Positions 1-1,104 of a stretch of 64,000 nucleotides of DNA are shown here, piece after piece. A program made the position numbers and the translations under genes. Position 1 is the first letter of the stretch; each line of letters begins with the position of its first letter. Source of the stretch: Stylophora pistillata (Eukaryota); NCBI RefSeq assembly GCF_002571385.2, contig NW_019218066.1, positions 347,497-411,496 of the forward strand, read 5' to 3'. The notes under the pieces were generated by a model. It did not search any database, was not told where the DNA came from, and saw only the letters and a program-made list of their open reading frames with translations.

Positions 1-1104
1 AATTTTCGTTGCAATTAAATCTTCGAGATTCTTGATTTTTTCTTCAATACTCAACCCCTTGGACCTACGGGTGTCCATAACGCCATATTCAGGACATTTC
101 ACCTGTCTCGCAAGTGTAACGTACGATTCCAGAAGTGTCTCTAAGTTTTCAGCGTTCAAAGTCATCACAAATGAGGGGCTGATTTCTGAGTTTACTTTCT
201 TGTAGAATTTCTCGGCTACTAGACCAGCGAGCTGAGATTTGCCACTTCCAGGATTACCGGTGATGTATAAGTAGTTTAGACGATTCTCGTTTGCTCTCTT
301 TAGTTGATCCAGGTCTTCTATTACTTCAGCAACCTCATCATCACGAGTTGCAATTTCGTGGGATGGTTTAGAAGGAAGAATGCAAAATGAGGAAATATCA
401 TCTTTTAGTTGAACTTCAAGGACCTCTCGCCGTTCTTCTGAAATTTCCAGTTGTTCTTCAACTATGTAGCGCTGTTTCTCTGATGATTCCAGTTGTTCTT
501 CAACCAACTGACGTTGTTTTTTTGCCGTCTCTAATTCCACTTTGGTTTCTTCGAGTTCTTTGTGAAGGTCCTCACATTTCCACCTCAGGTTTTCAACCTC
601 CTCTGTCTGAAAACTTCCCTGTTTACTGATTTCGTGGACTTGTGTGGTAGAGAGACCAAGTAAGCTAAATGCAATCTTTACTTTAACAACAGCAAGTTTG
701 AACTCTAATTCAGACAACTGGCCCCAGGGCAAGTGAGCAAAGTTTTCATTGCGAAACTCTCTAAGGTCATCGACACTCGATTTAAGTGTTGCGCTCAGTC
801 CATTACTGATAGAGTCAGAATAAAGGATTGCAAAGAATAGCGTTGTACAATCCCATTCCGCTGTACTTCCCTTTTTTACAGTTTCCAATAATCGAGCATT
901 TCGTCTTTGGCTATGGGGAGATTCATTGTTGTAGAAGTCCAATCCATTTCGAGGGGTGTCTTTCCATTCTCCCAGAGTTGCCTGGTAACGGCTGTCCCAT
1001 TGTTTTTTAAAAATGAATCGCAGCTCTAGCGGCAGTATATTCGTGGCAATGTGACAAACTCTGAAGTAGTTGAGCTGCTCCTTGGTGTAAACTGGGTTGG
1101 CCAT
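1..1104 (-). CDS. NLR-like STAND protein, 5' part: DZIP3-type HEPN domain, coiled coil, NB-ARC/P-loop NTPase; continues beyond the window start
   Basis: Manual translation from ATG at 1104 is open for 368 codons: MANPVYTKEQLNYFRVCH...WDCTTLFFAILYSDSI...DDLREFRNENFAH (HEPN RxxxxxH, 733-753), then three ~14-aa QRxxVEEQLE repeats, then YLYITGNPGSGKSQLA (Walker A, 235-258). Not in the ORF track because it has no stop in the window. Confidence 0.88.
   Translation of the reverse strand, partial: MANPVYTKEQLNYFRVCHIATNILPLELRFIFKKQWDSRYQATLGEWKDTPRNGLDFYNNESPHSQRRNARLLETVKKGSTAEWDCTTLFFAILYSDSISNGLSATLKSSVDDLREFRNENFAHLPWGQLSELEFKLAVVKVKIAFSLLGLSTTQVHEISKQGSFQTEEVENLRWKCEDLHKELEETKVELETAKKQRQLVEEQLESSEKQRYIVEEQLEISEERREVLEVQLKDDISSFCILPSKPSHEIATRDDEVAEVIEDLDQLKRANENRLNYLYITGNPGSGKSQLAGLVAEKFYKKVNSEISPSFVMTLNAENLETLLESYVTLARQVKCPEYGVMDTRRSKGLSIEEKIKNLEDLIATKI

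What the first reader, a model, noticed from the sequence alone, without database searches (positions are those of the whole stretch)
1..1104. HEPN-RNase-armed NLR-like receptor gene hidden from the ORF track, next to a TE/virus graveyard
Seen: an intronless open frame with an intact R-N-E-N-F-A-H motif, a coiled coil built from a 42-nt internal repeat, and a Walker A motif. Known: Rx4-6H is the catalytic motif of HEPN RNases, and DZIP3-type HEPN domains fuse to STAND NTPases in invertebrate NLR expansions, paralleling prokaryotic effector-STAND antiviral systems. Inference: an oligomerisation-activated RNase immune effector whose linker length varies by repeat gain. It is the only undisrupted host-type gene in the window.
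Basis: partly seen in the sequence, partly recalled or inferred. Interest (0 to 1): 0.7.

Follow-up and report, generated by a model that had tools for sequence, protein, structure and literature searches.

The report
Coral RNase-headed immune receptor gene
This is the front part of one of dozens of similar stony-coral genes that encode an immune-receptor-like ATPase with a likely RNA-cutting head on a coiled stalk whose length changes in steps of seven residues; the layout is already catalogued in corals, and its predicted RNase activity is untested.

Summary
A stop-free 368-codon frame (minus strand, Met at 1104) carries RNENFAH, a coiled coil and a Walker A motif, and runs into a run of N at the window edge. 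An unplaced contig overlaps it 225/225 nt and continues as NB-ARC plus 42-residue TPRs; it is the probable, not proven, 3' part. The head is a HEPN domain, but a divergent one: Pfam misses it, while profile, language-model and fold evidence tie it to DZIP3/Swt1-type HEPNs. R and H are kept in 211 of 249 homologues. About 45 head-bearing matches occur in this genome. The HEPN-NB-ARC-TPR layout is already listed for corals (PMC10236652, Additional file 17), and this scan noted it before on other DNA, including this genome. Correction: linker length varies in 7-residue steps (17 of 18 paralogues), not 42-nt steps. A model of two copies gives a parallel coiled-coil dimer with the catalytic His at the head-head interface (score 0.72, best control 0.00). 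Likely a ligand-gated RNase immune receptor; activity untested. Verdict: new member of a known kind.

The parts
1..1104 (-). 5' part (368 codons) of a HEPN-coiled coil-NB-ARC-TPR gene; runs off the window into a run of N
   Evidence: probable continuation on contig G000:C2493 (L035), 225/225-nt overlap, 1479-codon stop-free frame
613..1104 (-). Divergent HEPN domain (aa 1-164), all-helical
733..753 (-). Rx5H motif R118-N119...H124 at the end of helix 105-122
382..612 (-). Heptad coiled-coil stalk (aa 165-241), predicted parallel homodimer; length varies by 7-residue steps among paralogues
407..504 (.). Imperfect 42-nt (two-heptad) tandem repeat inside the stalk, 2.3 copies, 75%
1..381 (-). Start of the NB-ARC-type STAND ATPase (aa 242-368)
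235..258 (-). Walker A motif GNPGSGKS

Best explanation
This is the 5' part of a stony-coral NLR-like gene (HEPN head, coiled-coil stalk, NB-ARC ATPase, TPR tail), one of a large expanding family, and it likely works as a ligand-gated RNase immune receptor. Shown: domain order, family size, motif conservation, heptad-step stalk variation. Predicted: two heads pair through the stalk with His124 at the interface. Inferred from Apaf-1, plant NLRs and bacterial Avs proteins: the TPRs bind a foreign or damage ligand, the NB-ARC module switches and oligomerises, and the paired HEPN heads cut RNA (invader RNA or the cell's own, ending in arrest or death).
For: Head: hhalign to the genome's own DZIP3-HEPNs 71.5%, E 3.6e-5, collinear with RN..H aligned; 13 and 12 of 22 paralogues hit HEPN_DZIP3 and HEPN_Swt1 at E<=1, best 1.3e-4 and 2.9e-6; a family HMM finds 7 of 7 DZIP3-HEPNs; Atlas top hits for a 77%-identical paralogue are DZIP3-HEPN clusters, 0.95; model pLDDT 93 with HEPN proteins at ranks 1 and 3 (Csm6 Z 7.4, rmsd 4.0, 119 aligned; AbiF Z 6.8, rmsd 5.7, 151 aligned) and 5 or 6 more in the top 50. 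R and H kept in 21 of 22 paralogues and 211 of 249 homologues. The same head is fused to CARD, GT4-conflict and PNP-UDP domains in single relatives. ATPase: model of the 93%-identical paralogue matches Apaf-1 at E 2.4e-13, then CED-4 and plant NLRs; 5 of 46 homologues pass the NB-ARC cut-off. Tail: 18 TPR_12 stretches on C2493. Purifying selection on the head against 4 of 6 paralogues, dN/dS 0.15-0.22. Dimer model: score 0.72, best of 3 controls 0.00, runs agree in 96% of contacts, pLDDT 88; interface includes 82-85, 123-129 and 173-237; the mark was reached by 21 of 30 microbial homodimers and 0 of 23 single chains, by 7 of 16 animal homodimers and 0 of 30 eukaryotic single chains.
Against: No activity data. 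No Pfam hit for this copy's head alone, no Foldseek match at E<=0.001, no PDB sequence match, and Z under 8 is common for helical bundles. R118 (92%) and H124 (90%) are no better conserved than structural positions or R29 and R115 (93-95%), and among 50%-identity representatives only 92 of 129 keep both. The sensor-1 position reads TTQ, not the TTR recalled for Apaf-1. A coiled-coil dimer is an easy prediction and may be from memory. The 3' part is not joined in the assembly: one public contig continues with paralogue C217-type letters instead of C2493-type. Expression of this copy is not shown: two raw RNA runs (2% read) gave almost no reads on the frame.
Confidence: 0.6

Rival explanations
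1. Same RNase receptor, but the heads are always paired by the long coiled coil, and ligand binding changes their geometry through the stalk (a conformational switch) rather than bringing them together by oligomerisation.
For: About nine heptads are modelled as an in-register parallel dimer without the ATPase; length changes keep the heptad register, as expected if the stalk transmits a twist; the sensor-1 Arg is replaced by Gln across the family.
Against: The fold matches oligomerising STANDs; register-keeping indels are expected for any coiled coil; no data on resting state.
Confidence: 0.17
2. The head is a non-catalytic HEPN used for RNA binding or as an adaptor (as proposed for Swt1), and signalling goes through partners.
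For: 38 of 249 homologues lack R or H in the aligned columns, 37 of them among distant representatives (some are alignment shifts); part of the profile signal is to Swt1-like HEPNs.
Against: 119 of 120 near homologues and 21 of 22 own paralogues keep both residues, with N119 and D85 invariant in 22 of 22; H124 sits in the modelled head-head interface.
Confidence: 0.13
3. The family is functional, but this copy is a truncated or decaying duplicate.
For: Its 3' end is missing from the scaffold; many paralogues carry stops or frameshifts, including two on the same scaffold and an in-frame stop in the TPR array of the closest paralogue; against that paralogue the head shows 15 non-synonymous and 3 synonymous changes; little RNA evidence.
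Against: 368 open codons with all motifs intact; C2493 overlaps 225/225 nt and is open for 1479 codons to a stop; a contig of run X2 carries C2493-type letters 10 bases past the junction.
Confidence: 0.08
4. It is a nephrocystin-3-like housekeeping protein, as databases label its paralogues.
For: Three paralogue-like database proteins are named 'Nephrocystin-3'; TPR_NPHP3 passes its cut-off.
Against: NPHP3_N stays under its cut-off (19.9 of 24.8 bits); about 45 fast-diverging copies with a HEPN head; the name follows from generic 42-residue TPRs.
Confidence: 0.02

Closest known systems
Coral DZIP3-like HEPN - NB-ARC - TPR genes (orthogroup OG0000193, PMC10236652 Additional file 17; supplement rows seen)
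   Same: Same three-part layout, same animal group, tandem expansion.
   Different: This head is not detected by the DZIP3 model; whether this family is OG0000193 or OG0000334 (NB-ARC-TPR with 'noneDetectedN') could not be told, as I did not see their sequences. In this genome 6 Pfam-visible DZIP3-HEPN long frames carry other ATPases (2 of 6 give only weak 25-27% local matches to this NB-ARC).
DZIP3/hRUL138 and Swt1/CXorf38 HEPN families (PMC3710099, passages seen); bivalve HEPN-NACHT proteins (PMC9646362, passages seen)
   Same: R-N-x-H motif, helical fold, fusion to STAND and repeat domains, lineage-specific expansion, predicted RNase role.
   Different: About 20% identity to DZIP3-HEPNs; lacks their long Pro/Trp loop before the motif helix and has its own W-rich insert; Rx5H dominates (197 of 249).
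Bacterial Avs STAND receptors (PMC13581612, passages seen)
   Same: N-terminal nuclease effector, STAND ATPase, TPR sensor; works-like model.
   Different: Avs7 has a Cap4 DNase, tetramerises on phage capsid protein and is experimentally proven; no ligand or activity is known here.
Apaf-1 / CED-4 / plant NLR NB-ARC proteins
   Same: NB-ARC fold.
   Different: Enzyme-type head instead of CARD, CC or TIR; TPR instead of WD40 or LRR; Gln at the sensor-1 position.

Membership tests
HEPN superfamily | Rx4-6H motif with a polar residue after R, conserved in the family | tested here: met
   RNENFAH; R 21/22, N 22/22, H 22/22 in paralogues; 211 of 249 homologues keep R and H
HEPN superfamily | Sequence-profile homology to known HEPN families | tested here: met
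   hhalign 71.5%, E 3.6e-5; four HEPN Pfam families appear among weak hits; 7 of 7 DZIP3-HEPNs found by family HMM; Atlas 0.95
HEPN superfamily | Helical HEPN fold | tested here: inconclusive
   All-helical model, motif at end of helix 105-122; best match Csm6 Z 7.4, AbiF Z 6.8, not above background for helical bundles; Foldseek nothing at E<=0.001
HEPN superfamily | Upstream conserved acidic residue | tested here: inconclusive
   D85 and E61 invariant in 22 of 22, D85 in the modelled interface; equivalence to the catalytic acid not established
HEPN superfamily | Composite active site in a dimer (feature recalled, not from a call) | tested here: inconclusive
   Homodimer model passes, 0.72 against control 0.00, residues 123-129 in the interface; a model, not binding data
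HEPN superfamily | Metal-independent RNase activity | not testable with these tools
   needs an assay
DZIP3/hRUL138-like HEPN (PF18738) | Score above the curated cut-off of 27 bits | tested here: not met
   No hit for this copy; best relative scanned 26.1 bits; not among the 150 scored genome matches (254 candidates, only the best 150 scored)
Swt1-like HEPN (PF18731) | Score above the curated cut-off of 27.5 bits | tested here: not met
   12.8 bits for this copy
NB-ARC (AP-ATPase) STAND | Walker A and Walker B | tested here: met
   Walker A in the window; hhhhDN Walker B on C2493 and in 4 of 6 paralogues by pattern
NB-ARC (AP-ATPase) STAND | NBD-HD1-WHD fold with GxP-type and MH motifs | tested here: met
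   Paralogue model, pLDDT 91, Foldseek Apaf-1 E 2.4e-13; QPLAL and MHxVV; tested on the 93%-identical paralogue, not on this copy
NB-ARC (AP-ATPase) STAND | Sensor-1 arginine (TTR; recalled) | tested here: not met
   TTQ in C2493 and paralogues; Q nearly invariant in 38 sequences
NB-ARC (AP-ATPase) STAND | Ligand-driven oligomerisation | not testable with these tools
   needs biochemistry or cryo-EM
NLR-like tripartite receptor (effector-STAND-repeats) | C-terminal repeat sensor in the same frame | tested here: met
   TPR arrays in C2493 and in single open frames of 3 of 3 paralogues scanned; the join for this copy is inferred
NLR in the strict sense (NACHT + LRR) | NACHT ATPase and leucine-rich repeats | tested here: not met
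   NB-ARC and TPR instead

The most novel reading that the evidence does not exclude
A coral-wide HEPN subfamily that Pfam misses (430 clusters at 50% identity, about 45 copies here) forms animal NLR-like receptors that are themselves active RNases, and the heptad-stepped stalk (3 to 24 heptads) is a tuning element that sets the firing threshold or restricts pairing to copies with a matching stalk, while recombination reshuffles heads and TPR sensors between paralogues.
Probability: 0.2. Interest if true: 0.65.

Novelty: new member of a known kind. Interest (0 to 1): 0.3.

Why it matters
Invertebrate HEPN-STAND proteins have been predicted RNases since 2013, and my searches found no functional test. 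A compact, intron-free head+stalk with a confident dimer model is a convenient test case for whether animals use Avs-like receptors with a built-in RNase. The family also shows that Pfam-based counts of coral HEPN-NLRs are too low and that some 'Nephrocystin-3' labels are wrong. The single gene itself is ordinary within its family.

Tried and rejected
Pfam on the whole frame and on the head alone: no HEPN hit. PDB sequence search with the head profile: 2 chance hits. Foldseek with the head model: nothing at E<=0.001. phmmer of the paralogue STAND against PDB: only Cdc6 at E 0.28. The repeat finder did not find the 42-nt repeat. The 42-nt unit as the step of variation: rejected, steps are 7 aa. 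Positive selection across TPR units: not seen overall, pN 0.216 < pS 0.335 for 11 units. Linker length against C-terminal length: no correlation, rho -0.09, n=135. Excess amino-acid change in the head against the closest paralogue (15:3 against 10:11, Fisher p 0.043) is post hoc and not counted as evidence. Placing C2493 in the gap by flanking matches: its tail matches window 3780-4550 (96.8%) and the far side of the gap matches window 1667-2710 (90%), and the missing 1069 nt are close to the 1086 N, but window 2990-3800 is a dispersed repeat (163 matches), so this is a hint only. Raw RNA reads X22, X23: 6 and 17 reads laid, nearly all on a repeat outside the gene. Paper searches for coral+NLR+coiled-coil+heptad gave 2 unrelated listings. 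Look-up of earlier findings by sequence found nothing. No tree of STAND domains and no splice-aware gene search of the window were run.

Full report
1. Observation. The window holds a stop-free frame on the minus strand from Met at 1104 to base 1, 368 codons. RNENFAH lies at aa 118-124 and Walker A GNPGSGKS at aa 283-290. An Rx4-6H pattern arises in 62% of shuffles of this protein, so it needed independent support. The 42-nt repeat exists (407-504, 2.3 copies, 75%) and beats codon shuffles (0 of 2000) but not synonymous re-encoding (167 of 2000); it covers under half of the linker. The rest of the window is mobile-element debris: 31 of 53 long frames were scanned and the 8 with hits are Gypsy, Harbinger and Polinton-type domains.

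2. Where the gene goes. The window is G000:C282:347497-411496; base 1 abuts a run of 1086 N. Unplaced contig C2493 begins with 225 of 225 bases identical to window 225-1 and continues as a 1479-codon frame to a stop, with Walker B (LMVIDN), TTQ, QPLAL and MHRVV motifs and 18 TPR_12 stretches in 42-residue units. If joined, the protein would have about 1770 residues (arithmetic only). The join is likely but not proven. A contig of run X2 has C2493-type letters for 10 bases past the junction; a contig of run X1 is window-type before it and matches the paralogue on C217 at 12 of 12 listed differences after it. C217 and C2493 are identical over 180 TPR codons while differing elsewhere. Recombination or conversion between close paralogues, or chimeric contigs, would explain this; either continuation is NB-ARC-TPR.

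3. Family. The genome gives 116 matches (a lower bound); by my hand count 45 cover the whole head, and four copies lie on this scaffold, two of them broken. Public data give 767 proteins of 645-2000 aa at E<=0.001, and the named ones among the 120 listed are all stony corals (Stylophora, Pocillopora, Porites, Desmophyllum), three labelled Nephrocystin-3; 430 clusters at 50% identity match the head. Among 46 relatives scanned, most carry TPR tails, and single ones fuse the head with CARD, GT4-conflict, PNP-UDP or Ets domains.

4. The head is a divergent HEPN. Pfam gives no hit for this copy's head, although the genome has at least 150 true HEPN_DZIP3 matches elsewhere. But 13 of 22 paralogues hit HEPN_DZIP3 and 12 hit HEPN_Swt1 at E<=1; the family profile aligns end to end with DZIP3-HEPNs, RN..H on RN..H (71.5%, E 3.6e-5; 7 of 7 found); the Atlas returns DZIP3-HEPN and DUF4559 clusters at 0.95 for a paralogue. 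The AlphaFold model is all-helical, pLDDT 93. Foldseek finds nothing significant; VIA-align ranks Csm6 first (Z 7.4) and AbiF third (Z 6.8), with Cas13, an archaeal HEPN, sacsin and Swt1 lower down, all within the range that helical bundles reach by chance. R and H are both present in 211 of 249 rows covering the motif (22 of 271 rows did not cover it): 119 of 120 near homologues, 92 of 129 distant representatives; they are not more conserved than core structural residues. dN/dS of the head is 0.15-0.22 against four paralogues, 0.55 against one and 1.48 (15 N, 3 S) against the closest.

5. The ATPase is NB-ARC. A model of the 93%-identical paralogue (pLDDT 91) matches Apaf-1 (E 2.4e-13), CED-4 and plant NLRs; 5 of 46 homologues pass the NB-ARC cut-off while the paralogue itself scores 18.2 of 23.5. 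The sensor-1 position is Gln, where I recall Arg in Apaf-1.

6. The stalk. Measured between fixed motifs, linkers are 36, 50, 57, 64, 71, 78, 85 or 91 residues in this genome: 17 of 18 distinct linkers (from 30 loci) share one phase modulo 7. In public homologues 97 of 135 measurable linkers (of 268 proteins) do so, from 22 to 169 residues, and 24 more are offset by +4; 15 of 24 distinct lengths are in phase (binomial P 8e-8, relatedness ignored). ESMFold2 models aa 1-245 as a symmetric dimer: parallel in-register coiled coil over 173-237 and a head-head interface with residues 3-25, 82-87 and 123-129, which includes H124; score 0.72, best of 3 controls 0.00, 96% agreement between runs, pLDDT 88; on animals the mark was reached by 7 of 16 known homodimers and by 0 of 30 eukaryotic single chains; my alignment was not used. 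This supports pairing but does not show it.

7. Expression. Contigs of run X1 (RNA by guess) cover window 1-1081 and not the upstream 1135-1512; a poly(A) run has a 2088-nt contig with 6 differences over 313 bases, so an allele or paralogue; two raw runs gave almost nothing on the frame. The family is likely transcribed at a low level; this copy is not shown to be.

8. Mechanism. Shown: architecture, conservation, expansion, heptad-step variation. Predicted: head pairing through the stalk. Inferred: TPR ligand sensing, NB-ARC switching and oligomerisation (as for Avs7, PMC13581612, passages), and RNA cleavage by the Rx4-6H site (PMC3710099, passages; that HEPN sites form in dimers is recalled, the word does not occur in that paper). 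Rivals: pre-paired heads switched by conformation, a non-catalytic head, a decaying copy, or a nephrocystin-3 orthologue.

9. Prior knowledge. PMC10236652 reports many DZIP3-like HEPN N-termini on coral NACHT/NB-ARC proteins and TPR tails on NB-ARC ones (passages); its Additional file 17 lists HEPN | NB-ARC | TPR genes in Acropora and Pocillopora (30 of 228 places seen) and an NB-ARC-TPR orthogroup with no detected N-terminal domain (30 of 54 seen), which may be this family; its FASTA supplement could not be read. PMC8260672 (passages) and PMC9646362 (passages) report HEPN-NACHT expansions in cnidarians and oysters; PMC12314368 and PMC8195603 (passages) give context only. Searches found no functional test and no mention of the heptad-stepped stalk; the library lacks most subscription journals. 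Three earlier notes of this scan describe the same layout, one in this genome.

10. Verdict. Real gene, correctly read in outline, new member of a known kind. Modest added value: a Pfam-invisible HEPN lineage and a register-keeping stalk. Interest 0.3.

Noticed in passing
window 4547-5046: Two 248-bp tandem units, each with a tRNA-Thr(AGT)-like gene (4646-4718, 4894-4966); more copies lie near a paralogue in L034, so probably a tRNA-derived repeat.
   Followed up: partly
window about 14400-27500: AT-rich, broken Polinton/Maverick-type element on the minus strand: pPolB pieces, a PLA2-like domain, integrase-like and protease-like frames; observed only.
   Followed up: partly
window 8291-12442, 39924-44931, 59421-60785: Three Gypsy-type retroelement remnants with in-frame stops or gaps.
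   Followed up: partly
window 32438-34340: Harbinger/PIF pair: Myb/SANT gene on + and interrupted DDE_Tnp_4 transposase on -.
   Followed up: partly
window 53023-57475: Several minus-strand frames (362, 180, 211, 191 aa) with Cys/His clusters and no Pfam hit; probably an interrupted transposase of an unnamed family.
   Followed up: no
window 1667-2710 and 2990-4550; L031 6616-7710; L035 6274-7056: The repeats upstream of the gene recur in the same order downstream of it (90% and 96.8%), and the missing part (1069 nt) is close to the N-run length; direct repeats on both sides could promote duplication of the gene.
   Followed up: partly
L035 1686-1813: A contig of run X1 skips exactly 126 nt, one TPR unit: TPR copy-number variation or an assembly artefact.
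   Followed up: no
L032 4496-4498: The closest paralogue (C217) has an in-frame stop inside its TPR array, with 866 open codons behind it.
   Followed up: no
proteins P0256, P0040, P0227, P0223, P0015, P0123: The same head is fused to CARD, GT4-conflict, PNP-UDP and Ets domains, or doubled, in relatives.
   Followed up: no
window 48674-48933 and 49671-49797: Short tandem arrays (15, 26, 41, 115 nt units) that are reverse complements of each other, like the ends of a MITE.
   Followed up: no
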